A DNA stretch of 64,000 nt from an uncultured delta proteobacterium (lineage in GTDB: Bacteria; Desulfobacterota; Desulfobacteria; Desulfobacterales; JAHEIW01). Positions 10,213-29,448 of this stretch are shown here, piece by piece. Within the stretch, counting starts at the first letter, position 1. The number at the start of each line of letters is the position of its first letter. The position numbers and the translations under genes are program-made. The DNA lies in NCBI GenBank assembly GCA_963706575.1, contig CAVPNL010000005.1:320001-384000 (forward strand). The letters are read 5' to 3'. The notes beneath the pieces are model-generated. The model was not told the DNA's origin, did no database searches, and saw nothing but the letters and a program-made list of their open reading frames with translations.

Positions 10213-10701
10213 ATGTCGTTAAATTTGTCTGCTATCCCCCCTAACAATGCAGAGGTCTTCTTGGCTCCAGAGTTTCAAAGAAAAAAAATACTCATCGTTG
10301 ATGATGAATTGGATATGCGGATTTTCCTCTGCAATCTGCTGGGCAACTGCGGATATGAGCCCATTGAAGCAAATGATAGGACAGAGGGGATGCAAAAGGC
10401 GGAAAAAGAAAAGCCGGCGTTGATCATTTTGGATGTCATGATGCCCAAGGAAGACGGCATTCTAATGTATCGAGCGCTCAAGGCGCATGAAGAACTGAAG
10501 CATGTGCCGGTGATTATGGTGTCAACCATCGATCAGAAAATGTTTTCATTCTACCATAAATTGCAAATGTCCTCTCGGGATAAAGCCATTTCTGAATCGG
10601 GAGCTTATTTAGAGAAACCGTTGCAAACCGAAAAACTCATCCAACTGGTCCGGAGATTTACCGATGCAGATGAATTCGCGATTACACGAGATGAAAAATA
10701 A
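10213..10701 (+). CDS. Single-domain response regulator
   Basis: IVDDE, ILDVMMP and EKP motifs; start uncertain (possibly TTG 10261). Confidence 0.85.
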   Translation: MSLNLSAIPPNNAEVFLAPEFQRKKILIVDDELDMRIFLCNLLGNCGYEPIEANDRTEGMQKAEKEKPALIILDVMMPKEDGILMYRALKAHEELKHVPVIMVSTIDQKMFSFYHKLQMSSRDKAISESGAYLEKPLQTEKLIQLVRRFTDADEFAITRDEK

Positions 10702-13007: not shown

Positions 13008-16000
13008 ACGAATCGGTTTTTATATTTGCCACTGCGGCATCAATATCGCTTATCGGGTTCGGGTGCAGGAAGTCGCTGCGTACGTGGCGGCTTTGCCGAA
13101 TGTGGTCATTTCGCGGGATTACCTGTTCATGTGCTCCGATCCCGGGCAGGAACTTATTGAAAATGATATTCAAGACTACCAACTTACGCGTGTGGTTGTG
13201 GCCTCCTGTTCCCCGCGCATGCACGAAAAAACCTTTCGGGCGGCCTGCCAGCGGGCCGGTCTCAATCCCTATCGGGCGTTTCACATGGTGTGCGTGCGAG
13301 AGCATGTTTCGTGGGTCACCGAGGATGAAGACGAGGCCACCCAAAAGGCCAAGACCCTGGCGGTCGCAGGTATCTTACGGGTTGCCTACCAATATGATCT
13401 AACACCGGCCACGTTTCCGGTATGCACCAACACCCTGATCGTGGGCGGGGGCATCGCCGGCATGCAGGCCGCTCTTGATATTGCCAAGGCCGGGTTTAAA
13501 GCTTACCTGGTGGAAAGACAGCCCACCGTCGGCGGACACATGCTCCAATACGACAAAACCTTTCCTACCCTTGACTGCGCGGCCTGCATCGGTACGCCCA
13601 AGATGGTCTCCGTGGCCCAGGAAGCAAAGATCGAGCTGCTCTCATACAGCGAGGTGGAGGATGTCAGCGGCTTTATCGGCAACTTCAAGGTAAAAGTCCG
13701 CCGCAAATCGCGCTACATAGAGGATAGCTGTACCGGGTGCGGCGAGTGCGAAAAGGTTTGCCCGATCGAGTTTCCCAATGAATGGGACGTGGGCACAAAG
13801 ACCAGAAAGGCGATCTACCGGCCCTTCCCCCAGGCCGTACCCATCACCTACTGTATCGACAAGTACGACCGTGCCCCGTGTGTTCAGACTTGCCCGGCCG
13901 GCACCAATGTACAGGGCTACGTATCGCTGGTTAAATCGGGCAGGTACCGGGAAGCGGTCAATCTCATCATGCAGAAATTACCTCTGCCGGGAACCCTCGG
14001 ACGCATCTGCCCGGCCCCCTGTGAAAAAGAATGTCGCCGCGCCGAGGTGGACTCCGCCATAGCCATCCGTGATCTGAAACGGTTTGCAGCAGACCAGGTG
14101 GACCTTTCCGAGCTACCCCTGCCGGAGATCGAAGACCGGCCGGAGAAGATAGCGGTTATCGGTTCAGGGCCCGCCGGTCTGACTGTCGCATATTATATGC
14201 GATTAAAAGGTTACGCGGTCAGCATTTTCGAGGCGCTGGATCAAGCCGGCGGGATGCTGCGGGTAGGGATTCCAGACTACCGTCTGCCGCCGGAGATACT
14301 GGACAATGAAATCAATTTTATTCTCAAACACGGGATAGAAATCAGAACCGGCGTTCGATTCGGATCGGACCTGTCCCTGGAAGGTCTCCGCCAAGACGGC
14401 TTTGCCGCCATATTTTTGGGAATTGGCGCCCATGACGCCATCCGGATGAACATTCCGGGAGAAGAGCAGGCCGCAGGCGTCATCGATGCCCTCGCTTTTT
14501 TAAGAGAGGTAAACCTGGGCAAAGGAGAGGTTCCCGGCAAGCAGGTCATTGTCATCGGCGGCGGCAATGTGGCCATAGACGCCGCCCGGGTGGCAAAACG
14601 TCTGGGGGCCGAAAAGGTGACGGTGGTTTACCGCCGCTCCGAGCGGGAAATGCCGGCCTATCCTGAAGAATTACACGGCGCCAGGGAGGAAGGTATTGAA
14701 TTTTCATACCTGACTGCTCCGGTAAGTATCCATCGTCAGGGCGGAAAGGTGACCGGGTTTGAATGCATTCGCACCGAACTCGGCCCGCCGGATGCCAGCG
14801 GGCGAAGGCGACCGCTGCCGGTTGAGGGATCTGAATTCGTCATGGCGTGTGATGCGGTCATACCGGCCATCGGTCAGAAAATTGATGTAACCTGGAGCGC
14901 AGGGGAGCCCGATCTCAAACTGACTTCGCGAAACACTTTTACGGTAAATACCACCACTTTGCAAACCAGCCTTCCCGATGTATTTGCCGCCGGTGATGCC
15001 GTGACCGGCCCGGCGACGGTCATCGAAGCCGTGGCGGACGGGCACAAGGCGGTGGCGGCCATGCACCGCTTTATCAGCGGTGAGGATCTGGATCAGTACG
15101 CCGCCGAACGGGTTGCCGAAGAACCTCCGGGAACCAAATGGCAGGCAATTCCCGAAAAGATCAAAAATACTGCCCGGGTGGTATCCGAACATCTGGATCC
15201 CGCCCAACGGGCTAAAAATTTCGATGAGGTTGACCGCAATTTTTCCGAGGCGGCAGCCAGGCAAGAAGCCGCCCGCTGTGTGGATTGCGGAGGATGTTGC
15301 GAATGCAAGCTCTGCGTGGACGCCTGTGAAGCCAAAGCGATCAATCACGAAATGGCGGATAGGGTCGAAGAAATCGAGGTGGGCTCAATCATTGTCGCTA
15401 CCGGCTTCGATCCCCTCGACCCGACCCCGATGCAGCAATACGGATACGGCAGGTACGCCAATGTTTTCACCAATCTGGAGTTCGAGCGGCTTTCCAACGC
15501 CACCGGACCGACGGGCGGCAAGCTCCTTAAGCGGGATCCCAACGACCGCTTGAAATTCAGCGCGGCGCCGAAAAGCGTGGCGATCCTTCATTGCATCGGC
15601 AGCCGCGATATCAACTACCACGAGTATTGCTCGCGCACCTGCTGTATGTATGCGCTCAAGTATGCCCATCTTCTCAAAGACAAGTGTGGACACGACACGC
15701 AAGTTTACAATTTCTACATCGACATGCGTTGCTTTGGCAAAGGGTATGAGGAGTTTTACAAGCGCGTCCAGAGCGAGGGTGTGCGCATGGTTCGCGGCAA
15801 GGCTGCGCGGGTGGAAGAAAACGACGGTATCCTGACGGTAACCGCCGAAGATACACTTTCGGACCGAATTGTGAAAGTTCCGGTAGAGATGGTGATCCTG
15901 TGCACCGCCATGGAGGCCCGTTCGGACGCCAACACCGTGTCGCGTATCTTTGGGATCAGCCTTGGAAGTGACGGTTTCTTTCAAGAGGAACACCCTAAAC

Positions 16001-16380
16001 TTGAACCTGTGTCGACTCCTACCAGCGGTGTTTTTTTGGCCGGAGCCTGTCAGGGACCCAAGGATATTCCTGATACGGTGGCGCAGGCCAAGGGAGCCGC
16101 GGCCGAGGCGCTGGCCCTTAGCGCCTCCGGAGAGGTCGCGGTGGCCCCGATGATTTCATTCATCGACCCGGACATATGTATCGGCTGCCAGGCATGTATC
16201 GGACTGTGCGCCTACACGGCTATCGAATTCAATGAGCTCAAAGGGGTTAGCGAGGTAAACGAAGCCGTGTGTAAGGGTTGCGGTAGTTGTTCCGCCCACT
16301 GCCCCAGCGGGGCTGCCAAGGTTCGGCACTTCACCGACAAGCAGGTTTTTGCGGAAATCGATGGTTTATTAGCCGGTTAG
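13000..16380 (+). CDS. hdrA: HdrL-type large HdrA: heterodisulfide reductase subunit A with an inserted GltD/NfnB-like NAD(P)H-oxidoreductase domain
   Basis: CHCGINI, ASCSPRMH, GGGIAG, DKTFPTLDC, ferredoxin, inserted LGRICPAPCE...GSGPAG...GGGNVAID, LEFER, CIGSRD..YCSRTCCM, GACQGPKDIP and a C-terminal ferredoxin. Confidence 0.9.
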   Translation: MSERIGFYICHCGINIAYRVRVQEVAAYVAALPNVVISRDYLFMCSDPGQELIENDIQDYQLTRVVVASCSPRMHEKTFRAACQRAGLNPYRAFHMVCVREHVSWVTEDEDEATQKAKTLAVAGILRVAYQYDLTPATFPVCTNTLIVGGGIAGMQAALDIAKAGFKAYLVERQPTVGGHMLQYDKTFPTLDCAACIGTPKMVSVAQEAKIELLSYSEVEDVSGFIGNFKVKVRRKSRYIEDSCTGCGECEKVCPIEFPNEWDVGTKTRKAIYRPFPQAVPITYCIDKYDRAPCVQTCPAGTNVQGYVSLVKSGRYREAVNLIMQKLPLPGTLGRICPAPCEKECRRAEVDSAIAIRDLKRFAADQVDLSELPLPEIEDRPEKIAVIGSGPAGLTVAYYMRLKGYAVSIFEALDQAGGMLRVGIPDYRLPPEILDNEINFILKHGIEIRTGVRFGSDLSLEGLRQDGFAAIFLGIGAHDAIRMNIPGEEQAAGVIDALAFLREVNLGKGEVPGKQVIVIGGGNVAIDAARVAKRLGAEKVTVVYRRSEREMPAYPEELHGAREEGIEFSYLTAPVSIHRQGGKVTGFECIRTELGPPDASGRRRPLPVEGSEFVMACDAVIPAIGQKIDVTWSAGEPDLKLTSRNTFTVNTTTLQTSLPDVFAAGDAVTGPATVIEAVADGHKAVAAMHRFISGEDLDQYAAERVAEEPPGTKWQAIPEKIKNTARVVSEHLDPAQRAKNFDEVDRNFSEAAARQEAARCVDCGGCCECKLCVDACEAKAINHEMADRVEEIEVGSIIVATGFDPLDPTPMQQYGYGRYANVFTNLEFERLSNATGPTGGKLLKRDPNDRLKFSAAPKSVAILHCIGSRDINYHEYCSRTCCMYALKYAHLLKDKCGHDTQVYNFYIDMRCFGKGYEEFYKRVQSEGVRMVRGKAARVEENDGILTVTAEDTLSDRIVKVPVEMVILCTAMEARSDANTVSRIFGISLGSDGFFQEEHPKLEPVSTPTSGVFLAGACQGPKDIPDTVAQAKGAAAEALALSASGEVAVAPMISFIDPDICIGCQACIGLCAYTAIEFNELKGVSEVNEAVCKGCGSCSAHCPSGAAKVRHFTDKQVFAEIDGLLAG

Positions 16381-16394
16381 AAAGGAGTTATCAG

Positions 16395-16817
16395 ATGAGC
16401 GAATTTGAACCGACAATTGTAGCCTTTTTTTGCAACTGGTGCACCTATACGGCGGCGGATTTAGCGGGTACGTCGCGCCTGTCATATCCTCCCAATGTAA
16501 AAAGCATTCGGGTGATGTGCACCGGTATGGTGGATCCCCAATATGTGATCAAAGCCTTTCTGGAGGGGGCTGACGGGGTGTTGATCAGCGGGTGCCATCC
16601 GGGTGATTGCCATTATATCAACGGGAATTATAAAGCCCGCCGGCGGATAAAGCTGCTCAAGGAGATTCTGCCGAAATTCGGTTTTGATCAACAACGGTTG
16701 CGCTTAACCTGGATCGGTGCCAGTGACGGCATCCAGCTTGCCGAGGTCATGCGTGATTTGGTTGCTCAAATCAAGGCTTTGGGACCCAGCCAGGCCAAGT
16801 TGAAGATGGTGATTTGA
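16395..16817 (+). CDS. mvhD: MvhD-type [2Fe-2S] subunit
   Basis: FFCNWCTY.AAD.AG, RVMCTG, GADGV..GCHPGDCHY; ATG after AGGAG. Confidence 0.92.
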   Translation: MSEFEPTIVAFFCNWCTYTAADLAGTSRLSYPPNVKSIRVMCTGMVDPQYVIKAFLEGADGVLISGCHPGDCHYINGNYKARRRIKLLKEILPKFGFDQQRLRLTWIGASDGIQLAEVMRDLVAQIKALGPSQAKLKMVI

Positions 16818-16984: not shown

Positions 16985-18127
16985 ATGGCGATTACGGCTA
17001 AAATTGATGTGAAAGATAAAGACATTTTAGGATCTCTGCAGGGTTTTTTTAAGAATATTCTTGAAACTGATGAAATCCAATCACTGCTGGTGCCCCAGCA
17101 TTTGCCGATGAAAAACATGGTTATGCCGACCCTGGTGACCGATCCGAATCATCTGAATGGGGTTGATCCGCTATCGCCGGCCTTTCCGATGAACGCCGCC
17201 AAGATTGTTTCACGGCTGACCCGCAAGCCGATGGGCGCGAAGGTCGCGGCGGTATTGCGACCGTGCGAGATTCGGGCCTTTGTTGAGCTCGTGAAACTTA
17301 AGCAAGGGCGCACCGAGGAAGTTATTCTGATTGGAGTGGATTGCCTGGGAGCCTTCCAAAACAAAGATTATTTTCAGCTGGTGGGACAGAACGCAGCCGA
17401 GTCGACGGTCGTGTTCCATGAAAACGTGTTGCGCGGCAAAAGCACCGAGATTGACGGTTTGGACCTGGCGCCCGCCTGCAAGGCCTGTGAATATCCGGTG
17501 GCAGACAATGCCGATATTCTCATCGGCCTATACGGTATGGATATCGACCAATTTCTGCTGGTCCAGTCGCAAACTGAGGCTGGAGATCAGATCCTAAAGC
17601 AGATGAATCTTTCGACTACAGAGGCGCCCCGCGCCCGCCAGGATGCCATCAATGCCCTAATTACCCAACGCACCAAGTACCGGGATGACATGTTTGCCAG
17701 GACGCGTGAGGCGACCGACAGTCTGGAAAAAATGTCGAGCTACTTTGCCACCTGCGTCAACTGCTATAACTGCCGGGTGGCCTGTCCGGTTTGTTACTGT
17801 AAGGAGTGCGTTTTTGTCACCGATGTATTTAACCATGATCCGTCTCAGTATTTGCAGTGGGCCAATCGCAAAGGGATTATTAAGATGCCGACCGATACAC
17901 TTTTCTACCACTTAACCCGATTGGCACATATGAGCACGGCCTGTGTGGGCTGCGGCCAGTGTTCCAATGCCTGCCCGAATGATATTGCGGTCATGGAGCT
18001 GTTTCGAACTATCGCCCACGACACTCAGAAAGCTTTTGACTATGAGGCAGGCAAAAGTATTGAGCAAGAACCACCACTTTCGGTATTTCGTGAGGACGAA
18101 TTTGCCGAGGTTGTGGGCATAAATTAA
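16985..18127 (+). CDS. FdhB/FrhB-like 4Fe-4S protein
   Basis: LRPCE.RA, GVDCLG, ACKACEYP, CVNCYNCRVACPVCYCKEC, CVGCGQCSNACP. Confidence 0.8.
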   Translation: MAITAKIDVKDKDILGSLQGFFKNILETDEIQSLLVPQHLPMKNMVMPTLVTDPNHLNGVDPLSPAFPMNAAKIVSRLTRKPMGAKVAAVLRPCEIRAFVELVKLKQGRTEEVILIGVDCLGAFQNKDYFQLVGQNAAESTVVFHENVLRGKSTEIDGLDLAPACKACEYPVADNADILIGLYGMDIDQFLLVQSQTEAGDQILKQMNLSTTEAPRARQDAINALITQRTKYRDDMFARTREATDSLEKMSSYFATCVNCYNCRVACPVCYCKECVFVTDVFNHDPSQYLQWANRKGIIKMPTDTLFYHLTRLAHMSTACVGCGQCSNACPNDIAVMELFRTIAHDTQKAFDYEAGKSIEQEPPLSVFREDEFAEVVGIN

Positions 18128-18170: not shown

Positions 18171-21100
18171 ATGACCAAAAAAATTGGTAAAGCCCTGGTT
18201 GTCGGAGCCGGCATCAGCGGTATCCGCTCGGCATTGGACCTGGCTGAATATGGTTACGGCGTTACCCTGATAGACCGGTCCTGCCATATCGGCGGCATTT
18301 TGAGTCAACTCGACTATCAGTTTCCCACAGACAGGTGCGGTATGTGCAAAATGCTTCCTTTAGTCGATCGAGATGCAAGCTCGCAATATTGCCTTCGCAA
18401 GGGGCTTTTTCATGAAAATATCGACATTCTGCTTGGCACCGAGCTGGTTTCAATCGACGGTGAGCCCGGCCGTTTCCAGGTCCAGCTGAAGGAGCATCCC
18501 AATTGGGTCAATTCCGATCTGTGCACCGGTTGTGGAGAGTGTACCCAGGTTTGCCCCGTGGAGGTCCCCGACGAATTCAATGCCGGGCTGGCAAAGCGCA
18601 AAGCAATATACCTTCCGGTCCCCCATGCCATTCCCAACACCTATATTATTGATGTTACTTCCTGTAACGACTGCAGGGCCTGTATCGAGGCTTGCCCAAC
18701 AGATGCCATTCACCTGCCCGAGCAGAAACGCGAGGGATTTCGCATTCTTGTGGTCGATGATGAACTCATCGTGCGCGATTCCCTCAAGGAATGGTTGCAA
18801 GAGGAAGGCTTTGCGGTGGACATGGCCGCCTCCGGTTCGGAAGCTTTAGATCAACTGACAAAACAGGAATATCAATTAATGCTGCTGGATATCAAGATGC
18901 CGGGCATGGACGGTGTCGAGGTCCTGCAAAAGGCCAGAGAAAGCTTCGCGGATATCAATGTGATTATGATGACCGCTTATGCAACCGTTGAAACCGCTGT
19001 TGAAGCCATGAAAATAGGGGCTCTGGATTATCTGATAAAACCATTTGATCCCGAAACCCTGATCCCCATGGTCCTGAGAATATACCAGGATATGACGGCG
19101 GCTGAAGGCCGACAGTTAGAAGTTGGGGCCATCGTACTTAGCGGTGGCACGGCCTTTTTCGACCCGGCCGGCGGGAAAAACACGTTTGGCTACGGGATGT
19201 ATCCGAACGTTGTCACCAGCCTTGAGTTTGAACGCATATTAAGTGGTACCGGCCCCTTTGAGGGACGGCCGCTGCGGCCGCTGGACGGAAAACCGGTTCA
19301 TAAAGTCGCCTGGATTCAATGCGTAGGCTCGCGCGATTTGCAAACGGATGCAGACTTTTGTTCAAATATCTGTTGCATGGTGGCCATTAAAGAAGCTGTC
19401 CTGGCCAAAGAAAAAATCGACGCGGATTTGGAAACAACCCTTTTTTATATGGATATGCGTACGTTTGGCAAAAGCTTTCAACGCTACCGGGAGCAGGCTG
19501 AAAGCCTTCATGGTGTGCGATTCGAAAGGGGTCGGGTCCACTCTGTCATACAGGATGAAGAAAGCGGAGATATGATTATCCGCAGTGTGGCCATTTCCGG
19601 AAAATCCACTGAATCACATTTTGACATGGTGGTGCTCACCGTCGGCCAGCGTCCGGCCGGTGGCACCTCTGAATTGGGCGAAATGCTGGGGCTGGAGCTG
19701 AATCCATGGGGCTTTGGAAACACTATCCCTTTTTCCCTGACGCGAACCAACCGCAGCGGGATTTTGCTGGGCGGTTCATTCGCGGGTCTCAAAGACATCG
19801 GTGACTCGGTGACCCAGGCCTCGGCGGCTGCCTTATCGGCATCCCAGGTGATTCATTCCAGTGGGGGTAGCCTATCGTTGGAGTCGCCGCCAGCCCTGCC
19901 CATAGCTGCTCTGGCGCGTGAAATCCCCAGAATTATGGCGGTCGTCTGTACCTGCGGGGGCAAACTTTCAGGATTTAATGACCCGGCAGAAATTGTTCAA
20001 CACCTTAAAACCAACCCTGTGGTGAAACAGGTTGAATTTCTGGAACACATCTGCACGGCCGACGGCTGGGCACAGCTGGCGGAAATGGTGGAAACGAACA
20101 AACCGAACCGGCTTTTGATTGGCACTTGCATGCCCTATGTCTATCAACGCAAACTCCAGGAGTTCGGCCGGCAGGTGGGTATAGATCCTGCCCTGATGGA
20201 AGTGGTTGATGTAAATACGGAATTAAAGGACAAACGGCTACTTTTGCGCAATATGCTTTCTGCTTTAGAGATGGGGATTTCCAAGCTCAAATGGGTGGAC
20301 CCATCTTCAACCGTTACAATTCCAGTCGCTCAACGTGCTTTGGTCATCGGTGGCGGTATTGCCGGCATGACGGCTGCTCTGGCAATTGCCGATCATGGAT
20401 TTCAGGTGGATCTTGTGGAACAGGCAGAACAGTTGGGAGGAAATCTGAACTGGCTGCAGCGCACCCTGGAGGGGTATTCGATAGAGACATTGCTGGGGGA
20501 CACCCGTCTCCTGGTTGAAAGGCATCCCAAGATTGGCGTTCATATCCAGTCCCAGGTTATTAGTTCTGTTGGCCAGGTAGGGAGTTTTTTGACTACCTTG
20601 GAAGGCCCGCAAAATTCGGTCCAAGCCTTGGAGCATGGTGTGACTATTTTAGCCACCGGCGGGGCGGAAGCCGTAACCGTTTCTTATGGATATGGTACAA
20701 ATCCGTCGATTATCACCCAGAAAGAATTAGAGCAAAAGCTATCTGCCGGCAAGATCGAACCCGAGCAGCTCGATTCGGTAGTGATGATTCAATGTGTGGA
20801 CTCGCGCGAGGAACCGCGCAATTATTGCAGTCGGGTGTGTTGTGCCAATTCGCTCAAGCAAGCCCTGGATCTCAAGGAAAAAAACCCTGAACTTTCAGTA
20901 TACATTCTTTATCGGGACATGATGGCCTACGGATTTGCCGAGGCTTATTACACCCGGGCCCGCAAAGCCGGTGTGATCTTCATCCAGTATCAGATTGATG
21001 AAAAACCCCGGGTCCAATGCGACCCGGCAAGCCTGGAGGTGGCCGTTTTTGAGCCCATCCTCGGTCGGCCGCTTCAAATTCAGACGGATCTTGTGGTTTT

Positions 21101-21575
21101 AGCCACCGGCGTTGTTCCAAATCTTCCTCAGGGCTTGGTGGAAATTTTTGGCGTAACACTTGATCAGGACGGCTTTTTCCAGGAGGCCGAATCCAAGTGG
21201 CGCCCGGTTGACGCCCTGAAAGAGGGCGTTTTTGCCTGCGGTCTGGCCCACTCCCCTCGAAACATACCGGAAGCAATTACCACTGCCGAGGCCGCCGCCG
21301 CAAGAGCCTTGAGAATACTTGCCCGTGAGCGCTTGCGGTCGGGAAAAGTAGTGGCCACTGTCCGTCACAGTCTGTGCAGTCTGTGTGAACAATGCATTGA
21401 TGCATGTCCATACGGTGCTCGCGTGCTGGATCTTGATCATGAAAAGGTACTGGTAAATCCGGCAATGTGCCAGGGGTGTGGGTCCTGTGCGGCAGTCTGC
21501 CCCAACAGCGCATCCGTTTTGGAGGGTTTTCAGGAACAGCAAATGTTTGAGGTAATTGATGCCGCCATTGGATGA
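18171..21575 (+). CDS. hdrA: Tandem (two-FAD-domain) HdrA with an embedded response-regulator receiver domain
   Basis: GAGISG, ferredoxin, REC (~18738-19088), LEFER, QCVGSRD..FCSNICCM; second half GGGIAG, QCVDSR..YCSRVCC, CGLAHSP and ferredoxin. The reading frame is uninterrupted. Confidence 0.9.
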   Translation: MTKKIGKALVVGAGISGIRSALDLAEYGYGVTLIDRSCHIGGILSQLDYQFPTDRCGMCKMLPLVDRDASSQYCLRKGLFHENIDILLGTELVSIDGEPGRFQVQLKEHPNWVNSDLCTGCGECTQVCPVEVPDEFNAGLAKRKAIYLPVPHAIPNTYIIDVTSCNDCRACIEACPTDAIHLPEQKREGFRILVVDDELIVRDSLKEWLQEEGFAVDMAASGSEALDQLTKQEYQLMLLDIKMPGMDGVEVLQKARESFADINVIMMTAYATVETAVEAMKIGALDYLIKPFDPETLIPMVLRIYQDMTAAEGRQLEVGAIVLSGGTAFFDPAGGKNTFGYGMYPNVVTSLEFERILSGTGPFEGRPLRPLDGKPVHKVAWIQCVGSRDLQTDADFCSNICCMVAIKEAVLAKEKIDADLETTLFYMDMRTFGKSFQRYREQAESLHGVRFERGRVHSVIQDEESGDMIIRSVAISGKSTESHFDMVVLTVGQRPAGGTSELGEMLGLELNPWGFGNTIPFSLTRTNRSGILLGGSFAGLKDIGDSVTQASAAALSASQVIHSSGGSLSLESPPALPIAALAREIPRIMAVVCTCGGKLSGFNDPAEIVQHLKTNPVVKQVEFLEHICTADGWAQLAEMVETNKPNRLLIGTCMPYVYQRKLQEFGRQVGIDPALMEVVDVNTELKDKRLLLRNMLSALEMGISKLKWVDPSSTVTIPVAQRALVIGGGIAGMTAALAIADHGFQVDLVEQAEQLGGNLNWLQRTLEGYSIETLLGDTRLLVERHPKIGVHIQSQVISSVGQVGSFLTTLEGPQNSVQALEHGVTILATGGAEAVTVSYGYGTNPSIITQKELEQKLSAGKIEPEQLDSVVMIQCVDSREEPRNYCSRVCCANSLKQALDLKEKNPELSVYILYRDMMAYGFAEAYYTRARKAGVIFIQYQIDEKPRVQCDPASLEVAVFEPILGRPLQIQTDLVVLATGVVPNLPQGLVEIFGVTLDQDGFFQEAESKWRPVDALKEGVFACGLAHSPRNIPEAITTAEAAAARALRILARERLRSGKVVATVRHSLCSLCEQCIDACPYGARVLDLDHEKVLVNPAMCQGCGSCAAVCPNSASVLEGFQEQQMFEVIDAAIG

Positions 21576-21596: not shown

Positions 21597-23900
21597 ATGT
21601 TCAAGTTTATCAAAAATATCCGGCGTCGGTTGGCGACCAAGCTCATTTTAACAGTCGGCCTGACCCTGCTCATTACGATTTCTACCTGGGCTTACTTTAA
21701 TATCAATTATCAGGAAAAAAAGCTCATGGAGAATATTGTAGAAGGAACCGATCGGTTAACCAATACCATCAAACTCGGCACGCACTATGCCATGATGCTA
21801 AACTCGCGGGATGATATCAACCAGATCATTAATAATATCGGTAGGCAGAAAGAGATCGAAACCATTCGTATTTATAATAAGGGCGGGAAAATCAAATATT
21901 CCAACCAGCCGACGGAAATTGATACCGCCACCAATATAAAAGATGAAGCTTGTTATATCTGTCACCGGACGGAACCACCGCTGTTTGAACTCAGCCTGGA
22001 AGAAAGAACACGTATCTTTACCTCTGCCAAAGGCTATCGTTTACTTGGAATTATTAGCCCTATTTGTAATGAGCCTGGGTGTGCGACCGATGCCTGTCAT
22101 ATACATCCGAAAGGCAAAAAAATTCTTGGAGCGCTAGATGTGGTGGTCTCTCTGGAAGATGCGGATAAAGAAATCTTCATGACCCAAAAAGAAGCGTTTG
22201 GTTTGGCGGGTGCTATTTTCCTGGTGACATCCACCATTATTTTTCTTTTCCAGTTGCGGTTTGTCAATCAACCGATCCGGAAATTAATCGATGGAACCCG
22301 TACCATCGCAGAGGGGATTCATCCCAGCAGAGTCGACATTGACCAGGACGATGAGATGGGAAAACTTGCGGTTGCCATCAATCAGATGAGTAAAAAAATT
22401 GCCGAAAAACAGGCCGAACTGAATGAACAAAGAGACGAATACCAGACCCTCTTTGAAAGGGCACCCTGCCTGATTACGGTTCAGGATCGAAATTATAAGT
22501 TGCTAAGATATAATCGCGAATTCGCAAAACAGTTTGATCCTCAGCCCGGCGAACATTGCTATCATTCATATAAAGGGCAAGATCAGAAATGTGAAAATTG
22601 CCCGGTTGAACACACATTTGAAGATGGTCAAACCCATTATGGTGAGGAGACCGGGCTTAACAAAGACGGTACCCCGGTTCATTGGATTCTGCGAGCATCT
22701 CCGATTAAAAATGCGAAGGGTGAAATTGTTGCCGCCATCGAGATGAGCCTAGACATTACACAGCGCAAACAGCTTGAGGACAAACTGGAAAAGTCTGAGA
22801 AGAAATATCACGAAATTTTCAACAATATGCCAAACCCCGTTTTTGTATTGGACCTGGCGTCATTGAAGATACTCGACTGCAATGAGAGTGTAAAACCAGT
22901 ATACGGATTTGATAAAGATGAAGTCATTAACAGATCCTTTTTGGATCTCTTCATCGGAAAAGACCGTGATGAATATGCGTCAAAGCTAAAAAACGTTTCC
23001 GTGATCAACCAGGCAAAACAGCAGAACAAAAATGGCAAGACACTTTTTGTGACCATCAGAATTTCGCCTTCGGATTATTCGGGCAATAAGGTGCTTCTCG
23101 TGAGCACCAGCGATATCACCAAACGGCTCGAAACCGAGCAGCAGTTAATCCAGGCCAGCAAGATGGCAACCTTGGGAGAGATGGCCACCGGAGTTGCCCA
23201 CGAGCTCAATCAGCCGCTTTCGGTGATAAAAACCGCCAGCAGTTTTTCCATAAAAAAAATAAATAAAAACGAGCCGATCGAAGCGGAAATCTTGTTCAAA
23301 ATTCTGGCAAAGATAGACAGTAATGTGGATCGAGCGACAAAAATAATTAACCATATGCGGCAATTTGCGCGTAAATCTGAGATGGATTTGGAGAAAGTCC
23401 AGATCAACGACATTCTCGAAAGGGCTTTTGAGATTTTCAGCCAACAGCTTAAGTTAAGAGGGATTGAAGTCATCTGGTCCATCGACAAGAAATTACCGAA
23501 GATCAATGCGGATCCCGGTCGCATGGAGCAGGTGTTTATCAACCTTTTATTGAATGCCAGAGACGCAATTGAGGATAGATGGGGTAATCAAGAGCCGCAA
23601 TCAAGTGAAAAAAAGATTATTCTAAAAACAGTCTGTGATGGGCACAACGTCATCTGCGAGGTCTGTGATACCGGCATAGGGATTTCGGAATCTATTTCAG
23701 ATAAAATATTTGAACCTTTTTTCACGACGAAGGAAGTCGGCATGGGCACGGGGCTGGGGTTATCCATCAGTTATGGGATCGTGAAAGATTGCGGTGGTAG
23801 TATACAGGTCGTTCCCAACAAGCCAGAGGGCGCCTGTTTTGTTTTAAAATTTCCGCTGCAGGATATAAACGATGCAAAAGAAATTACTACTCGTCGATGA
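21597..23900 (+). CDS. Membrane sensor histidine kinase (periplasmic heme-c motifs, HAMP, 2 PAS)
   Basis: Two TMs flank CYICH (21951-21965) and CATDACH (22080-22100); HAMP; PAS with C-x10-C-x2-CP; VAHELNQPL and HATPase boxes. Confidence 0.9.
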   Translation: MFKFIKNIRRRLATKLILTVGLTLLITISTWAYFNINYQEKKLMENIVEGTDRLTNTIKLGTHYAMMLNSRDDINQIINNIGRQKEIETIRIYNKGGKIKYSNQPTEIDTATNIKDEACYICHRTEPPLFELSLEERTRIFTSAKGYRLLGIISPICNEPGCATDACHIHPKGKKILGALDVVVSLEDADKEIFMTQKEAFGLAGAIFLVTSTIIFLFQLRFVNQPIRKLIDGTRTIAEGIHPSRVDIDQDDEMGKLAVAINQMSKKIAEKQAELNEQRDEYQTLFERAPCLITVQDRNYKLLRYNREFAKQFDPQPGEHCYHSYKGQDQKCENCPVEHTFEDGQTHYGEETGLNKDGTPVHWILRASPIKNAKGEIVAAIEMSLDITQRKQLEDKLEKSEKKYHEIFNNMPNPVFVLDLASLKILDCNESVKPVYGFDKDEVINRSFLDLFIGKDRDEYASKLKNVSVINQAKQQNKNGKTLFVTIRISPSDYSGNKVLLVSTSDITKRLETEQQLIQASKMATLGEMATGVAHELNQPLSVIKTASSFSIKKINKNEPIEAEILFKILAKIDSNVDRATKIINHMRQFARKSEMDLEKVQINDILERAFEIFSQQLKLRGIEVIWSIDKKLPKINADPGRMEQVFINLLLNARDAIEDRWGNQEPQSSEKKIILKTVCDGHNVICEVCDTGIGISESISDKIFEPFFTTKEVGMGTGLGLSISYGIVKDCGGSIQVVPNKPEGACFVLKFPLQDINDAKEITTRR

Positions 23901-24993
23901 TGAAAAGGATGTCCGCGAGGTTCTGCTCTTACCCTTGTCGGATTTCGGATACCATATTTTCGAAGCCGAAAATGGAGAGGAAGCTTTGCGCCTTTTTAAG
24001 GAAGTCCAGCCGCCGATCGTTATGACTGATATTAAAATGCCGGGCATTGATGGTATCGAGCTGCTGCGAAAGATAAAACATGAAAATCCGGAGACCGAAG
24101 TCATTATGATCACCGGGCATGGGGATATGGATCTGGCAATTAAAAGTCTTAAATATGAAGCCACAGATTTTATCACGAAACCAATTAACGTCGATGCTCT
24201 GGAAATCGCACTCCAAAGGGCTATGGATCGAATTATTACCCGACAAAAACTACGCGAGTATACCGAAAACCTCGAGCAGCTTATACGCGAGAAAACCGAG
24301 TTGCAGAGCCATTTATCTTCGCTAGGTTTGATGATTGGATCCATATCTCATGGAATAAAAGGCCTGTTGACCGGATTAGATGGCGGTATGTATCTGCTGA
24401 ACTCAGGTTTTTCGAAAAAAAACAAAGACCAGACTGAAGAGGGGTGGGAAATCGTAAAGTCGATGGTCGAACGAATCCGCAAGATGATTATGGATATCCT
24501 TTTTTATGCCAAGGAAAGAGATCTCAAATTGGAGCGCATCGATATCCGAAATTTTGTCGAAGAGGTGGTCAAAGAACTTGAACCAAAAATGAAAAGTCAA
24601 AACATTAAATTCATAAAGAATTTCGATACTGATCTAGGAGAGCTCGAAGTTGACGCAACCTATGTCCATTCTGCCCTGATTAATATCATTGAAAATGCAA
24701 TAGAAGCCTGCAGCCAAGACCAAACAAAAAACTCGCCTGAAATTGTTTTCAGCGTCAAAGCGCACAAAAAAAGCGTCATCTTTGAAATTGCTGATAATGG
24801 CATTGGTATGAATCGTGAAACTCAGGAAAGAATTTTTACACCATTTTTTTCGTCCAAAGGGAGCAAAGGAACCGGACTAGGGCTTTTTGTCTCCAACACC
24901 ATCATCCAGCAGCATGGTGGTGTAATCAATGTGAAATCCACCTCCGGTCAAGGTGCTGTTTTTCAGGTAAAAATTCCGAAACAGGAGGGATAA
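23872..24993 (+). CDS. Hybrid REC-histidine kinase
   Basis: VDDE/TDIKMP/TKP receiver, H-box SISHGIKG, NAIEA, DNGIG, FTPFFSSKG, GTGLGL. Confidence 0.9.
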   Translation: MQKKLLLVDDEKDVREVLLLPLSDFGYHIFEAENGEEALRLFKEVQPPIVMTDIKMPGIDGIELLRKIKHENPETEVIMITGHGDMDLAIKSLKYEATDFITKPINVDALEIALQRAMDRIITRQKLREYTENLEQLIREKTELQSHLSSLGLMIGSISHGIKGLLTGLDGGMYLLNSGFSKKNKDQTEEGWEIVKSMVERIRKMIMDILFYAKERDLKLERIDIRNFVEEVVKELEPKMKSQNIKFIKNFDTDLGELEVDATYVHSALINIIENAIEACSQDQTKNSPEIVFSVKAHKKSVIFEIADNGIGMNRETQERIFTPFFSSKGSKGTGLGLFVSNTIIQQHGGVINVKSTSGQGAVFQVKIPKQEG

Positions 24994-26124
24994 TGAGAAC
25001 TTTCGACGATTTAATTAAAGAAGTGCAAAACCCCGGACTTTGTCATCGTTGTGGTGCTTGTGTCGCCTTTTGTGCAGCCATTAACTACGGGGCTTTAGAG
25101 TTAGATTCAGAAGGGCAACCAAGATATGCGGATAAAGATAGATGTATCAAGGGTGGGCTGTGCTATGTAATCTGCCCGGCGATCGATGAGTTAAAAGAAG
25201 AAACAAAAAGAAAGGTGGATTGGGCCGCGCCCATGGGGCGGGTATCCGATATCCGTATTGCGCGTGCGAAAGACCCGGCTATCCGCAACGCAGCTACGGA
25301 TGGGGGCGTTGTCACCGCGTTACTGGTTTATTTATTTCAAAAGCGTCAGATAGATGCCGCTGTCGTGACAAAGCCTGTCGGGCCATTCAAGCGTGAATCG
25401 TTTTTAGCCGCAACTGAGGAGGATATTCGCAGTTCAGCCGGATCTTTCTTTGATATCTCATATGGCATGAAAAGCTTAAGCGACCATTACTCGACTTATT
25501 CCCAGATAGGCGCATTTCATTCTAATATCAAAAATGGATTTCAACGTGTTGCCTTCGTCGGGACTCCCTGCCAGATACAGGCCATTCGCAAAATGCAAGC
25601 GATCAATATCTTCCCGTCGGATGCCGTCAAGTTATGTTTGGGACTGTTATGTTCGGGAAACTTCATTTTTGGAGAAAAACAACGGCGCCAGGTTGCCCAA
25701 ATTGGCAATTTTCAATGGGAGCGTGTCAAGAAAATTAATATCAAAGAAAAGCTGATGGTGCATTTAAAAGGCGGTGAAGTGAAAACAATTAAGCTAAACG
25801 ATCTTAACTTCATGAAGCGGTTTCCTTGTAATTTCTGTGATGACTTTTCGGCCGAGTATGCCGACATTTCATTTGGCGGGCTGGGTGCAGATGAAGGGTG
25901 GACCACCGTTATTATACGCTCCCCGATAGGAAGGAAATATTTTTCATGGGCTAAGTCCAAAGCAATTGAAGAAAACGAGGAGGGTCGCCATCTGCATCAT
26001 ACCTAGTAAGGCACTCAACAGGGTCAGACATTGGTCGCAGAAGAAGAAAACATTGGCCCTTGAAAGTCGAAAAACGCTGAGTAGTAAATTTCCAGACCTA
26101 AAGCTGGAAGATTGTTCTTTATAA
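24993..26124 (+). CDS. FrhB/FdhB-family (F420 hydrogenase/dehydrogenase beta-like) protein; probable frameshift near 25985
   Basis: CHRCGACVAFC, TDGGVVTALL, FVGTPCQ, GLLCS, CNFCDDFSAEYADISFG. The ORF stops at 26006, but an adjacent frame continues KALNRVRHWSQKKK... to TAA 26124, just before the next RBS. Confidence 0.75.
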
Positions 26125-26689: not shown

Positions 26690-27004
26690 ATGGAAAAAAT
26701 GTTAACATACATGATCGTCCACAATGATCCCAACATTTCATGGGAAAAGGTGGAGGAAAACTGGGGAAAACTCGCAAATGTCGAAACGTGTACATGGGTG
26801 CGGACTTGTTTTAATAAAGATAAGGGGCTGCGCTATTGTGTATGGTTGGCTCCCGATGAGCGTACATTAAAATCGATTTTTACTGATCTTAATATCTCTT
26901 ATGAATCGATAATAGAAGTTGAAGAAACGGTTCCAGATCTGTGGGGCAAGAGATGGGAAGAGCACCTCGCTGCAGAAGAAACGGCTAGCACACGGGGATT
27001 TTAA
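26690..27004 (+). CDS. Small DUF4242-like protein, paralog 2
   Basis: Same pattern as 26132; strong GAGGAGG RBS. Confidence 0.65.
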   Translation: MEKMLTYMIVHNDPNISWEKVEENWGKLANVETCTWVRTCFNKDKGLRYCVWLAPDERTLKSIFTDLNISYESIIEVEETVPDLWGKRWEEHLAAEETASTRGF

Positions 27005-27056
27005 TAAAAATTCCCTAATTTGAATGTTAATTTACATCCTATGTGGTGAGTACTGA

Positions 27057-27090
27057 AGGCAGGGTCAGCAATGGCCCTGCCTATTTTATC
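27057..27090 (+). terminator. Intrinsic terminator ending the Hdr cluster
   Basis: AGGCAGGGTCA-GCAA-TGGCCCTGCCT followed by ATTTT. Confidence 0.75.
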
Positions 27091-27236
27091 TTTAACTTTT
27101 GAGTTGCCATTTATCTGCATAAAAGTAGTCTTTATGAATTGCGGATTATGCCAGCATATCAAAGGTCTGCAGGTCGTCATCCCTTTCCTTCATTTACAAA
27201 AATGCTTGACAACCCATTCGTAAACGCTCAGGGTTA

Positions 27237-27256
27237 TTATGAGCATATGCTTATAA
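27237..27256. promoter_or_regulatory. Palindromic operator, copy 1
   Basis: TTATGAGCATATGCTTATAA, downstream of TTGACA (27206-27211). Confidence 0.7.
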
Positions 27257-29446: not shown

Positions 29447-29448
29447 GA

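What the first reader, a model, noticed from the sequence alone, without database searches (positions are those of the whole stretch)
18171..21575. HdrA flavoenzyme with an intact phospho-receiver domain inserted beside its ferredoxin domain
Seen: in one uninterrupted frame, a complete CheY-like receiver (~18738-19088) lies between the 2x[4Fe-4S] insert and the rest of the first FAD domain. It keeps VVDDE, the phosphoacceptor Asp in LLDIKMP (codon 18888), MMTAY and IKPF. HdrA motifs LEFER and CVGSRD-CSNICCM-xxxK are retained, and a second HdrA half follows. Known: HdrA carries the flavin used for electron bifurcation, and receivers normally gate DNA-binding or signalling outputs. The neighbouring HdrL carries its NAD(P)H domain in the same ferredoxin region, so this loop tolerates modules. 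Inference: phosphorylation by the adjacent kinases switches electron flow through HdrA, or HdrA redox state feeds into the phosphorelay. I know of no characterised example but cannot check the literature.
Basis: partly seen in the sequence, partly recalled or inferred. Interest (0 to 1): 0.9.

Follow-up and report, generated by a model that had tools for sequence, protein, structure and literature searches.

The report
Phospho-receiver domain nested inside HdrA flavoenzyme
A sulfate-reducer-type redox enzyme subunit (HdrA) carries an intact two-component "receiver" switch spliced into its ferredoxin-side port and sits beside its own sensor kinases, which suggests that a core electron-routing enzyme is controlled directly by phosphorylation, although nobody has tested this.

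Summary
ORF 18171-21575 (1134 aa) is one frame. It encodes a fused double HdrA with a full Response_reg domain (aa 192-300, E 2.4e-32) placed exactly between HdrA residues 312 and 318 of the solved enzyme 5ODC, where the inserted ferredoxin domain rejoins the flavin fold.

It is not a chimera. The junction query matches 194 of 401 sampled genomes of the same order, but only 6 from other orders in a 401-genome phylum sample. Independent metagenome contigs bridge both junctions.

In 137 family members the acidic pair, phospho-acceptor Asp240, Thr268 and Lys290 are kept in 135-137.

The gene lies in a conserved module: HdrL, MvhD, FdhB-like, REC-HdrA, HdrC/B, a HAMP-PAS kinase with periplasmic CxxCH motifs, and a REC-kinase. 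The first kinase is nearby in 29 of 34 assessable loci.

Best reading (0.55): phosphorylation of Asp240 gates the only low-potential port of the enzyme. This is inferred, not shown.

Eight full-text searches found no paper describing it. A 2009 supplementary figure key lists a receiver domain among Hdr domains.

Verdict: a new variant of a known kind (response regulator with an enzymatic output). Interest 0.68.

The parts
18171..21575 (+). REC-HdrA gene: a fused double HdrA-like flavo-iron-sulfur protein, 1134 aa, with a nested receiver domain
18171..18728 (+). Unit 1, first part (aa 1-186): FAD-binding start of the thioredoxin-reductase fold (G12, G14, G17), the Cys56/Cys59 pair (equivalent to Cys194/Cys197 of 5ODC), and the inserted 2x[4Fe-4S] ferredoxin domain (Cys118/121/124/128 and Cys165/168/171/175)
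18729..19100 (+). Receiver (REC) domain, aa 187-310, a canonical (beta-alpha)5 fold. Helix alpha5 (aa 294-309) runs straight into strand 311-318 of the flavin fold
   Evidence: Pfam hit; secondary structure of the AF2 model
18888..18890 (+). Codon of the phospho-acceptor Asp240
   Evidence: 137 of 137 family members keep Asp
19101..19910 (+). Unit 1, rest of the thioredoxin-reductase fold (aa 311-580), with LEFER and the 4-Cys cluster C384/C397/C401/C402
19920..20330 (+). HdrA N-terminal-type iron-sulfur domain of unit 2 (aa 584-720; C593, C595, C628, C653)
20331..21575 (+). Unit 2: second FAD fold without an inserted ferredoxin domain and without the Cys197-type pair, followed by the C-terminal 2x[4Fe-4S] ferredoxin domain
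21597..23900 (+). HK1: TM, periplasmic loop with CxxCH (aa 119) and Cx4CH (aa 162), TM, HAMP, PAS, PAS, HisKA, HATPase. The likely sensor kinase of the module
   Evidence: synteny
23872..24993 (+). REC-HisKA-HATPase hybrid kinase (receiver residues D10, D11, D53, T81, K103 present)
   Evidence: synteny
16985..18127 (+). FdhB/FrhB-like flavo-iron-sulfur subunit. It matches over its full length the FdhB-type chains of solved Hdr complexes (8RVU_E, 7BKB_E, 9T1S_M)
   Evidence: directly upstream in 33 of 35 assessable loci
16287..16817 (+). MvhD (FlpD) electron-transfer subunit
12970..16380 (+). HdrL-type HdrA with a GltD/NfnB-like NAD(P)H module inserted in the same loop
10717..13007 (+). HdrC/HdrB-like genes: a 616-aa Fer4+CCG protein and a 151-aa CCG protein. 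In most other loci separate HdrC and HdrB genes follow REC-HdrA instead
10213..10701 (+). Stand-alone receiver protein REC1 (162 aa) with an intact acidic pocket
8196..9935 (+). Sigma-54 activator with PAS-PAS in place of a receiver (PAS, PAS, AAA+, HTH)
24993..26006 (+). FrhB/FpoF-like flavoprotein at the end of the cluster. In the other loci it was seen only in L001, on the opposite strand

Best explanation
The gene encodes a genuine, conserved response-regulator/enzyme fusion.

The enzyme part is a fused double HdrA that probably acts as its own heterodimer:
- Unit 1 has the flavin fold, the Cys197-type pair and the only inserted ferredoxin domain.
- Unit 2 has the N-terminal cluster domain and the only C-terminal ferredoxin domain.

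An NtrC/AtoC-class receiver with every phosphorylation residue intact is spliced in where the inserted ferredoxin domain returns to the flavin fold. In methanogen Hdr that domain is the exit of the low-potential (ferredoxin) branch.

The protein belongs to a conserved module: HdrL, MvhD, FdhB-like, REC-HdrA, HdrC/B, a membrane kinase with periplasmic c-heme-type motifs, and a REC-kinase. No DNA-binding response regulator lies within it.

The most likely mechanism is as follows. The module's kinases phosphorylate Asp240. The resulting change on the alpha4-beta5-alpha5 side passes through helix alpha5, which continues directly into a strand of the flavin fold. This repositions or blocks the ferredoxin domain or its docking partner. 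Electron flow through the low-potential branch is thus gated after translation, in step with the periplasmic or cellular redox signal.

Shown here: the architecture, residue conservation, synteny and distribution.

Inferred: which kinase phosphorylates the receiver, that phosphorylation happens at all, and its effect on activity.
For: Architecture:
- Response_reg at E 2.4e-32, nested between HdrA residues 312 and 318 of 5ODC.
- The full-length AF2 model has mean pLDDT 88 and pTM 0.87. It shows a canonical (beta-alpha)5 receiver whose alpha5 (294-309) abuts strand 311-318.
- Foldseek's top hits are HdrA chains: 8RVY_A at E 2e-47, and 5ODC_A.

Enzyme kept intact:
- The FAD glycines and the cluster cysteines are invariant or nearly so (90% or more) in an alignment of 64 receiver-bearing and 25 receiver-less double HdrAs.

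Receiver kept functional (137 nested family members):
- D196 137, D197 135, D240 137, T268 135, K290 136.

Distribution:
- 194 of 401 genomes of the order match the junction query at E <= 1e-36 (92 of 174 genera). By my count about 180 have best E <= 1e-50.
- 10 of 401 match in the phylum sample, 6 of them outside the order.

Synteny in 38 loci (18, 20):
- FdhB-like gene directly upstream: 33 of 35 assessable.
- HK1: 29 of 34.
- REC-kinase: 24 of 34.
- HdrC/B genes downstream, or the HdrD-like/CCG pair upstream: all 20 loci (L081 shows HdrC only).

Other points:
- HK1 orthologues keep CxxCH plus Cx3-4CH in the periplasmic loop in 11 of 12. The twelfth is cut at its N-terminus.
- NCBIfam's best matches are AtoS for both kinases and AtoC for the receiver.
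- Two other proteins, P0135 and P0182, lie in a distant branch of a quick tree and carry N-terminal receivers. The association of REC with HdrA therefore arose more than once.

Literature (passages only):
- Fused HdrAs are proposed to be their own heterodimers, and a 500-aa NfnB-like module is tolerated in the same ferredoxin domain (PMC9012536).
Against: Nothing here shows phosphotransfer or any change in activity.

I had no model coordinates or PAE, so the contacts of the receiver with the rest of the protein are unknown.

Three of the 20 loci (L081, L082, L088) and two of the 14 assessable loci (L008, L013) lack HK1 nearby. Two loci (L081, L082) lack the whole upstream HdrL-MvhD-FdhB set. 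The receiver therefore does not strictly need this kinase next to it.

A sigma-54 activator and a stand-alone receiver are also conserved in the module. Signalling outputs other than the enzyme are therefore possible.

Most of the 137 sequences are more than 65% identical to the query, so the residue conservation is partly shared ancestry.

The protein scores below the NCBIfam cut-offs for true CoB-CoM HdrA (692 against 1100). Its substrate, and whether it bifurcates electrons, are unknown.
Confidence: 0.55

Rival explanations
1. The signal flows the other way. The HdrA flavin and iron-sulfur body is the sensor, and its redox state changes how fast the nested receiver gains or loses phosphate. 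REC-HdrA then acts as a redox-dependent phosphate sink or relay element. It would tune the HK1 / REC-kinase / REC1 network, and through it gene expression, rather than being its target.
For: - The module holds two kinases and three receivers (REC1, REC-kinase, REC-HdrA) but no DNA-binding response regulator. That is typical of branched relays with sinks.
- REC1 is conserved upstream in 14 of 20 loci, and a PAS sigma-54 activator lies within the region in 10 of 20.
Against: - No Hpt domain or other acceptor downstream of the receiver was found in the module.
- The sigma-54 activator has PAS-PAS and no receiver, so it cannot take phosphate from the relay.
- All catalytic cofactor sites and a full set of partner subunits (MvhD, FdhB-like, HdrC/B, HdrL) are conserved. 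That fits a working enzyme better than a dedicated sensor.
Confidence: 0.2
2. The receiver is mainly a structural or assembly module. It could act as a dimerisation or docking domain that builds a higher-order Hdr complex, with phosphorylation absent or incidental.
For: - Receiver domains often dimerise through the alpha4-beta5-alpha5 face (general knowledge, recalled).
- Methanogen Hdr complexes are dimers and super-assemblies (PMC13518236 and PMC9012536, passages).
- Helix alpha4 (aa 273-282) is almost invariant.
Against: - Pseudo-receivers usually lose the acidic pocket. Here D196, D197, D240, T268 and K290 are kept in 135-137 of 137, including clusters down to about 41-47% identity.
- Dedicated kinases co-occur in most loci.
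Confidence: 0.1
3. Assembly or annotation artefact: a response-regulator gene was wrongly joined to hdrA pieces.
For: The genome is a 25-contig assembly with 6.4% estimated contamination.
Against: - The same nested order appears in open frames of about 1140-1200 aa in hundreds of genomes, including single-contig ones.
- A DNA contig of another sample (X2, record 18, 18556-18796) bridges the ferredoxin-to-REC junction.
- Contigs of an RNA library (X16, records 11 and 12, 18986-19355 and 18989-19235) bridge the REC-to-flavin-fold junction.
Confidence: 0.01

Closest known systems
HdrA of methanogen HdrABC complexes (solved: 5ODC Mvh-Hdr, 7BKB Fdh-Hdr-Fmd, 8RVU/8RVY Elp-Hdr)
   Same: - Same thioredoxin-reductase-type FAD fold.
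- Same 4-Cys cluster, inserted and C-terminal 2x[4Fe-4S] ferredoxin domains, and N-terminal cluster domain.
- The same kinds of partners are encoded beside it: MvhD, an FdhB-type subunit homologous to 8RVU_E and 7BKB_E, and HdrC/HdrB-like CCG proteins.
   Different: - Two HdrA units are fused in one chain, with complementary domain loss.
- A 120-aa receiver is inserted after the ferredoxin insert.
- Scores fall below the NCBIfam equivalog cut-offs (692 against 1100).
- It is bacterial, so CoM-S-S-CoB is not the expected substrate (inference).
Fused or tandem 'self-heterodimeric' HdrA and HdrA with an NfnB-like insertion (ANME archaea, PMC9012536; HdrL of Desulfobacterium autotrophicum, PMC2702500)
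   Same: - The N-terminal domain and the Cys197-type cysteine are complementary between the two units.
- A whole foreign domain is tolerated in the inserted ferredoxin region.
- HdrL encoded in the same operon.
   Different: - The inserted module is a signalling receiver, not a second redox (NAD(P)H/FAD) module.
- The unit order is reversed compared with the ANME HdrA 3/4 described there. Here the unit without an N-terminal domain comes first.
Response regulators with enzymatic output domains (CheB methylesterase, PleD/WspR diguanylate cyclases, RpfG; recalled from general knowledge)
   Same: A canonical receiver with the full D-D-D-T-K set is fused to an enzyme and encoded beside histidine kinases.
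   Different: - The output is a multi-cofactor redox enzyme subunit of the electron-bifurcating type.
- The receiver is nested inside the output fold rather than N-terminal to it.
- I found no such output described in eight full-text searches.
Geobacter-type periplasmic c-heme sensor domains of chemoreceptors (Pfam PF21563 Mcp40H-20_sensor). The link of this Pfam family to heme-c sensors is recalled, not shown by a call
   Same: The periplasmic loop of HK1 has a conserved CxxCH and gives a weak match to PF21563: 26.8 bits for aa 1-221 scanned alone and 23.8 bits for the whole protein, against a cut-off of 27.
   Different: - The match is below the Pfam cut-off.
- The second motif is Cx3-4CH.
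- The output is a histidine kinase, not a chemoreceptor.
- Heme binding is not shown.

Membership tests
Response regulator receiver domain (CheY-like, PF00072) | Profile match above the curated cut-off over the whole domain | tested here: met
   111.8 bits against a cut-off of 30.2, profile positions 1-109 of 111, aa 192-300
Response regulator receiver domain (CheY-like, PF00072) | (beta-alpha)5 fold | tested here: met
   The AF2 model shows E187-195, H199-211, E214-219, H223-231, E236-240, H247-258, E263-268, H273-282, E286-289, H294-309. pLDDT of the 10-residue blocks is 66-89. This is a prediction, not a solved structure
Response regulator receiver domain (CheY-like, PF00072) | Acidic pair, phospho-acceptor Asp, and conserved Thr/Ser and Lys | tested here: met
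   D196, D197, D240, T268 and K290 are present. They are kept in 137, 135, 137, 135 and 136 of 137 nested homologues
Response regulator receiver domain (CheY-like, PF00072) | Phosphorylation at the Asp by a cognate kinase | not testable with these tools
   Only co-location with kinases is shown: HK1 in 29 of 34 loci, REC-kinase in 24 of 34
HdrA (FAD/iron-sulfur subunit of heterodisulfide reductase) | Thioredoxin-reductase-type FAD fold with a GxGxxG motif | tested here: met
   G12/G14/G17 and G727-G732 are invariant or nearly so. Foldseek gives 8RVY_A at E 2e-47 with TM-score 0.75 normalised to the target
HdrA (FAD/iron-sulfur subunit of heterodisulfide reductase) | Cysteine ligands of the flavin-fold cluster, the inserted ferredoxin, the N-terminal domain and the C-terminal ferredoxin | tested here: met
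   The cysteine ligands (C118/121/124/128, C165-175, C384/397/401/402, C593/595/628/653, C1069-1110) are invariant or nearly invariant (90% or more) in A1. The domains are split between the two fused units
HdrA (FAD/iron-sulfur subunit of heterodisulfide reductase) | Score above the NCBIfam cut-off for CoB-CoM HdrA / HdrA2 | tested here: not met
   HdrA2 692 bits against a cut-off of 1100; HdrA 542 against 1400. It is therefore HdrA-like and not filed as the methanogen enzyme
HdrA (FAD/iron-sulfur subunit of heterodisulfide reductase) | Flavin-based electron bifurcation / disulfide reduction with HdrBC | not testable with these tools
   HdrC/B-like CCG genes are present in the module. Activity is unknown
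Fused 'self-heterodimeric' HdrA (as described for ANME, PMC9012536) | [quoted passage not shown] | tested here: met
   Unit 1 has C56/C59, aligned to C194/C197 of 5ODC, and no N-terminal domain. Unit 2 has the N-terminal domain (aa 584-720). In the 5ODC alignment its flavin fold does not align between HdrA residues 181 and 476, and no Cys pair stands in the corresponding stretch after aa 758. The unit order is reversed compared with the paper's examples
HdrL (HdrA with a GltD/NfnB-type NAD(P)H module) | An NAD(P)H-binding GltD-like domain inserted in the ferredoxin region | tested here: not met
   No GltD/Fer4_20 match in P0001. The neighbour at 12970-16380 has it. HdrL is relevant only as a precedent for the insertion site

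The most novel reading that the evidence does not exclude
This would be two-component control exerted directly on an electron-bifurcating-type enzyme.

A membrane kinase reads the periplasmic redox state through c-type heme. Together with a REC-kinase it phosphorylates a receiver built into the sole ferredoxin-side port of a HdrL-MvhD-FdhB-HdrA-HdrCB complex. That opens or closes the low-potential branch within seconds, or switches the complex between bifurcating and confurcating directions.

About half of the sampled Desulfobacterales genomes match the junction.

The receiver may have been captured from the NtrC-type regulator of a sister hdr locus. It is 50% identical to such a regulator's receiver in the same genome. 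The local sigma-54 activator carries PAS domains instead of a receiver.
Probability: 0.35. Interest if true: 0.85.

Novelty: new variant of a known kind. Interest (0 to 1): 0.68.

Why it matters
Flavin-based electron bifurcation sets the energy budget of anaerobes. So far its control has been discussed in terms of gene expression and intrinsic conformational gating.

A phosphorylatable switch built into the ferredoxin port of an HdrA would be a direct, fast regulatory input to such an enzyme. Its dedicated sensor kinase appears to look at the periplasm.

The junction query matches roughly half of the sampled genomes of a globally important order of marine sulfate reducers. This makes the idea testable in cultivable strains. 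It could explain how these bacteria balance NAD(P)H, ferredoxin and thiol/disulfide pools when electron donors change.

It also offers a natural handle (D240 mutants, BeF3-) for trapping conformational states of an Hdr-type complex.

Tried and rejected
- **Interface test.** I sent the receiver (aa 188-310) as partner against aa 1-187 and 311-580. The verdict was 'no answer' (score 0.00, mark 0.32). It counts neither for nor against.
- **Model coordinates.** They were not available in the script box. I could not measure the receiver's contacts or the distance from Asp240 to the clusters.
- **Sigma-54 promoter scan.** The TGGCAC-N5-TTGC pattern with one mismatch gave 9 matches against 5.3 expected, none in a useful place. 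The sigma-70 promoter and terminator scan did not differ from shuffles. No operon boundaries are claimed.
- **Careful maximum-likelihood tree.** It did not finish in 300 s. Only the quick tree (SH-aLRT support) is used, and only for coarse statements.
- **The search for related loci.** This understated the distribution, which one search corrected.
- **Depth peak at 18855-18968.** It comes from the generic DIKMPGxDG receiver motif shared with unrelated regulators (many loose ends at 18880 and 18913). It is not a finding.
- **RNA-library contigs (X16).** They cover parts of the gene, but contigs in an RNA library do not prove transcription.
- **Chimera and pseudo-receiver readings.** Both were considered and rejected (see rivals).


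Full report
**Observation**

The window has a single open frame from 18135 (TTG) or 18171 (ATG) to 21575 on the + strand. Translated from the ATG it gives 1134 residues without a stop. Homologues start at the same Met (consensus of alignment A1).

Pfam finds a complete Response_reg domain at aa 192-300: E 2.4e-32, 111.8 bits against a cut-off of 30.2, covering profile positions 1-109 of 111. It is flanked by 4Fe-4S motifs and pyridine-nucleotide-disulfide-oxidoreductase stretches. A second FAD start lies at aa 720, and a C-terminal dicluster domain at aa 1062-1113. NCBIfam's best families are HdrA2, HdrA and hdrA_Methbact (692, 542 and 519 bits, each in four stretches and each below its cut-off), followed by AtoC, FixJ, ZraR and NtrC receivers.

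**Where the receiver sits**

I compared the protein with solved structures by phmmer. Against HdrA of Methanothermococcus thermolithotrophicus (5ODC_A):

- aa 15-184 align with residues 153-312. This is the start of the thioredoxin-reductase fold plus the inserted ferredoxin domain.
- aa 315-512 align with residues 318-514.
- aa 584-758 align with residues 2-181. This is the N-terminal cluster domain and the start of a second flavin fold.
- aa 962-1130 align with residues 476-647. This is the end of the fold plus the C-terminal ferredoxin domain.

The receiver (aa 187-310) therefore replaces a loop of about six residues. That loop is where the inserted ferredoxin domain rejoins the flavin fold.

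The protein is a fusion of two HdrA units with complementary parts:

- Unit 1 has Cys56/Cys59, aligned with Cys194/Cys197 of 5ODC, and the only inserted ferredoxin domain. It has no N-terminal domain and no C-terminal ferredoxin domain.
- Unit 2 has the N-terminal domain and the only C-terminal ferredoxin domain. It has no ferredoxin insert. I saw no Cys pair at the corresponding place.

This pattern is what Chadwick et al. proposed for fused HdrAs of ANME archaea, which they read as acting as their own heterodimer. They also describe a 500-aa NfnB-like insertion in the same ferredoxin domain (PMC9012536; I read passages only).

An AlphaFold2 model of the whole chain, built on an 89-row alignment, has mean pLDDT 88 and pTM 0.87. 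It shows a canonical (beta-alpha)5 receiver whose last helix (aa 294-309) is followed after one residue by strand 311-318 of the flavin fold. Foldseek returns HdrA chains first: 8RVY_A at E 2e-47, then 5ODC_A and 7BKB_A. No coordinates were available to me. The receiver's contacts are therefore unknown.

**Not an artefact, and not rare**

- All 120 listed hits of a word-indexed search with aa 100-420 are 70-96% identical. All carry PF00072 together with the HdrA-type domains, and most are about 1140 aa long. Where sources name them, they are called 'response regulator', 'FAD-dependent oxidoreductase' or 'heterodisulfide reductase subunit A'.
- Among the best 150 representatives of 50%-identity clusters, 15 show the complete order (N part, REC, C part). 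A further 14 are fragments with the receiver joined to one side. Identity goes down to about 41%.
- In a sample of 401 genomes of the window's order, 194 match a 157-aa junction query at E <= 1e-36. That is 92 of 174 genera, and 143 of 278 high-quality genomes. By my count from the table about 180 have best E <= 1e-50. Of the 150 listed match rows, all but one cover residues 1/2 to 154-157, mostly in open frames of about 1140-1200 aa.
- In the window's own genus, 5 of 10 other genomes match.
- In a phylum-wide sample, 10 of 401 match at E <= 1e-45. These are the window's genome, 3 of the same order and 6 of other orders.
- Record titles of the 18 family loci found in species-representative genomes name Desulfobacterales lineages: Desulfobacteraceae, Desulfosarcinaceae, Desulfococcaceae, Desulfobacula, Desulfosalsimonas and Desulfotignum.
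- The window's own genome has one copy only. Its other long double-HdrA and HdrL-type paralogues align to query aa 2-176/188 and then from about aa 310 on, so they lack the receiver. Some carry an in-frame TGA.
- A DNA contig from another sample bridges the ferredoxin-to-REC junction (X2, record 18, 18556-18796, 4 differences). Two contigs of an RNA library bridge the REC-to-flavin-fold junction (X16, records 11 and 12). The refutation test 'reads do not span the junctions' fails.

**Is the receiver functional?**

I took 137 proteins in which the receiver lies within 30 residues of both HdrA flanks. This set includes the query, and most members are more than 65% identical to it. Conservation is as follows:

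| Residue | Kept in |
|---|---|
| D196 | 137 of 137 |
| D197 | 135 of 137 |
| D240 | 137 of 137 |
| T268 | 135 of 137 |
| K290 | 136 of 137 |

Helices alpha1 and alpha4 are almost invariant. The enzyme part is conserved as well. The FAD glycines are invariant or nearly invariant. So are the cysteines of the flavin-fold cluster, both ferredoxin domains and the N-terminal domain. This holds in an alignment of 64 receiver-bearing and 25 receiver-less double HdrAs.

**Evolution**

I built a quick IQ-TREE tree of the concatenated N and C parts of unit 1. It has 82 rows: the query, 14 hand-picked close relatives, and those cluster representatives that cover both parts. All others were dropped. All 27 receiver-bearing rows fall in one clade with SH-aLRT 97, together with 4 receiver-less rows. 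A single origin is not excluded, and the careful search did not finish.

Two proteins in a distant branch carry receivers at the N-terminus instead: P0135 with three receivers, and P0182 with a receiver and a GCV_H-like domain. Receivers have therefore been joined to HdrA more than once.

HdrL-type proteins carry their insert of about 490 aa at the same site, with the N part ending at query aa 176-178.

The closest receiver in the window's own genome is 50% identical over 116 residues. It belongs to a classical REC-AAA-HTH sigma-54 activator. That activator is encoded with a PAS kinase, divergently from a selenocysteine-containing HdrL-type paralogue.

**The surrounding module**

In the window, all on the + strand:

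| Coordinates | Gene product |
|---|---|
| 8196-9935 | PAS-PAS sigma-54 activator |
| 10213-10701 | Stand-alone receiver REC1 |
| 10717-13007 | HdrC/B-like Fer4+CCG and CCG proteins |
| 12970-16380 | HdrL |
| 16287-16817 | MvhD |
| 16985-18127 | FdhB/FrhB-like protein |
| 18171-21575 | REC-HdrA |
| 21597-23900 | HAMP-PAS-PAS histidine kinase (HK1) |
| 23872-24993 | REC-HisKA-HATPase kinase |
| 24993-26006 | FrhB/FpoF-like protein |

The FdhB-like protein matches, over nearly its whole length, the FdhB-type chains of solved Hdr complexes: 9T1S_M at 1e-31, 8RVU_E at 1e-29 and 7BKB_E at 3e-25.

I checked synteny by tblastn in 18 family loci. I then checked 20 more regions taken from 20 different families of the order:

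| Neighbour | | |
|---|---|---|
| FdhB-like gene directly upstream | 15 of 15 assessable | 18 of 20 |
| MvhD | 13 loci | 18 of 20 |
| HdrL | 11 loci | 18 of 20 |
| HK1 downstream | 12 of 14 assessable | 17 of 20 |
| REC-kinase | 10 of 14 | 14 of 20 |
| REC1 | - | 14 of 20 |
| Sigma-54 activator | - | 10 of 20 |

In most loci separate HdrC-like and HdrB-like genes lie between REC-HdrA and HK1. In the window and three other loci, an HdrD-like/CCG pair stands upstream instead.

Exceptions:
- L081 and L082 have only REC-HdrA with HdrC (and in L082 HdrB) within the 20 kb.
- L088, L008 and L013 lack HK1 nearby.

HK1 has two hydrophobic segments flanking a loop that contains CYICH (aa 119) and CATDACH (aa 162). 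The CxxCH and a Cx3-4CH motif are kept in 11 of 12 orthologues; the twelfth is cut at its N-terminus. The loop matches PF21563 weakly (26.8 bits against a cut-off of 27). This points to a periplasmic c-heme sensor, but heme binding is not shown.

The receivers of the REC-kinase and of REC1 have intact acidic pockets, and both kinases have an H-box.

**Mechanism**

What is shown:
- An intact, strongly conserved receiver sits at the root of the only inserted ferredoxin domain of a cofactor-complete double HdrA.
- The protein lies within a conserved enzyme-plus-kinase module.
- That module has no DNA-binding response regulator of its own.

What the literature says (passages only):
- Electron transfer there is gated by domain movements (PMC13518236).

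What I infer:
- Phosphorylation of Asp240 by HK1 and/or the REC-kinase acts through helix alpha5, which is continuous with the flavin fold.
- This moves or masks the ferredoxin domain or its partner site. It thereby gates the low-potential branch in response to a periplasmic or cellular redox signal.

I give this reading 0.55. The reverse direction, in which the redox state of HdrA tunes a phosphate sink, gets 0.2. A mainly structural receiver gets 0.1. An artefact gets 0.01. The remainder is unassigned.

**Comparison with what is known**

The protein works like a response regulator with an enzymatic output. It looks like HdrA, but it does not meet the NCBIfam cut-offs for the methanogen enzyme. 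I therefore file it as HdrA-like.

Eight full-text searches found no paper that describes or discusses a receiver in HdrA. Their terms were:
- HdrA + receiver domain
- HdrA + response regulator + HdrL
- HdrA + CheY
- heterodisulfide reductase + response regulator receiver
- HdrA + inserted ferredoxin domain
- response regulator + output domain + electron bifurcation
- heterodisulfide + REC domain
- HdrA + histidine kinase + sulfate-reducing

A 2024 preprint surveying 11 domain architectures in 501 HdrA homologues does not contain the words response, receiver or regulator (term search only).

There is one trace in print. The colour key of Fig. S3a/b of the Desulfobacterium autotrophicum HRM2 genome paper (PMC2702500) lists 'Histidinkinase response regulator receiver domaine' among the domains of Hdr proteins (I read the text of the supplement). 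The legend of its Fig. 4 names a response regulator and a histidine kinase among the genes at hdr loci. Its locus VIII (hdrL/hdrA4 tandem, fdhB, hdrCB) resembles this module (passages). I could not see the graphic, so which protein was drawn with the domain is not known. The main text does not discuss it.

The library holds only open-access papers and preprints. Subscription papers on Desulfobacterales genomes could not be searched.

**Verdict**

The finding is real, widespread and uncharacterised. Its functional reading is plausible and testable but unproven. It is a new variant of a known kind. Interest 0.68.

Noticed in passing
window 21597-23900 (motifs at about 21951-21965 and 22080-22100): The HAMP-PAS-PAS kinase has a periplasmic loop between two hydrophobic segments. 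The loop carries CYICH and CATDACH. The CxxCH plus Cx3-4CH pair is kept in 11 of 12 orthologues, and the loop matches PF21563 weakly. It looks like a c-heme sensor kinase.
   Followed up: partly
G000:C4:4071-8501 (-), C4:340612-343621 (+), C15:254213-257194 (+); locus L101: The other long HdrA/HdrL paralogues of the same genome have an in-frame TGA in the N part, presumably selenocysteine. REC-HdrA uses Cys there (C56/C59). The paralogue at C4:4071-8501 has a divergent PAS kinase and a classical REC-AAA-HTH sigma-54 activator. That activator's receiver is the closest relative (50% identity) of the nested one.
   Followed up: partly
proteins P0135 and P0182: Other receiver-HdrA fusions exist with a different topology. 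One has three N-terminal receivers plus HdrA. The other has a receiver, a glycine-cleavage-H-like domain and HdrA. Both lie in a distant branch of the quick tree.
   Followed up: partly
window 6541-7446 and 7229-8107 (+): A REC-PAS ORF and a HisKA-HATPase ORF overlap by about 218 nt in different frames. In other loci (for example L006, L084) the two parts lie head to tail. This may be one REC-PAS kinase gene with a frameshift, or an over-extended upstream start of the second ORF.
   Followed up: no
window 8196-9935 (+): The sigma-54 activator of the cluster has two PAS domains where NtrC-type activators have a receiver. It is found in 10 of the 20 regions, on either side of the module.
   Followed up: partly
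loci L081 (G389) and L082 (G146): In two large single-contig genomes REC-HdrA stands with HdrC (and in L082 HdrB) only. No HdrL, MvhD, FdhB-like gene or HK1 lies within 8-9 kb. This is a reduced or relocated form of the module.
   Followed up: no
window 26690-31496 (+): Downstream genes are: a SCO4226-like nickel-responsive protein, a NifU-like protein, an AIR-synthase-related protein (SelD/HypE/ThiL-type, not resolved), and a TusA-DsrE fusion. The SCO4226-like gene also follows the module in L002.
   Followed up: no
window 18855-18968: Metagenome contig depth rises 5- to 20-fold here, with many loose ends at 18880 and 18913. This is the generic DIKMPGxDG receiver motif shared with unrelated regulators, not a feature of this gene.
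   Followed up: yes
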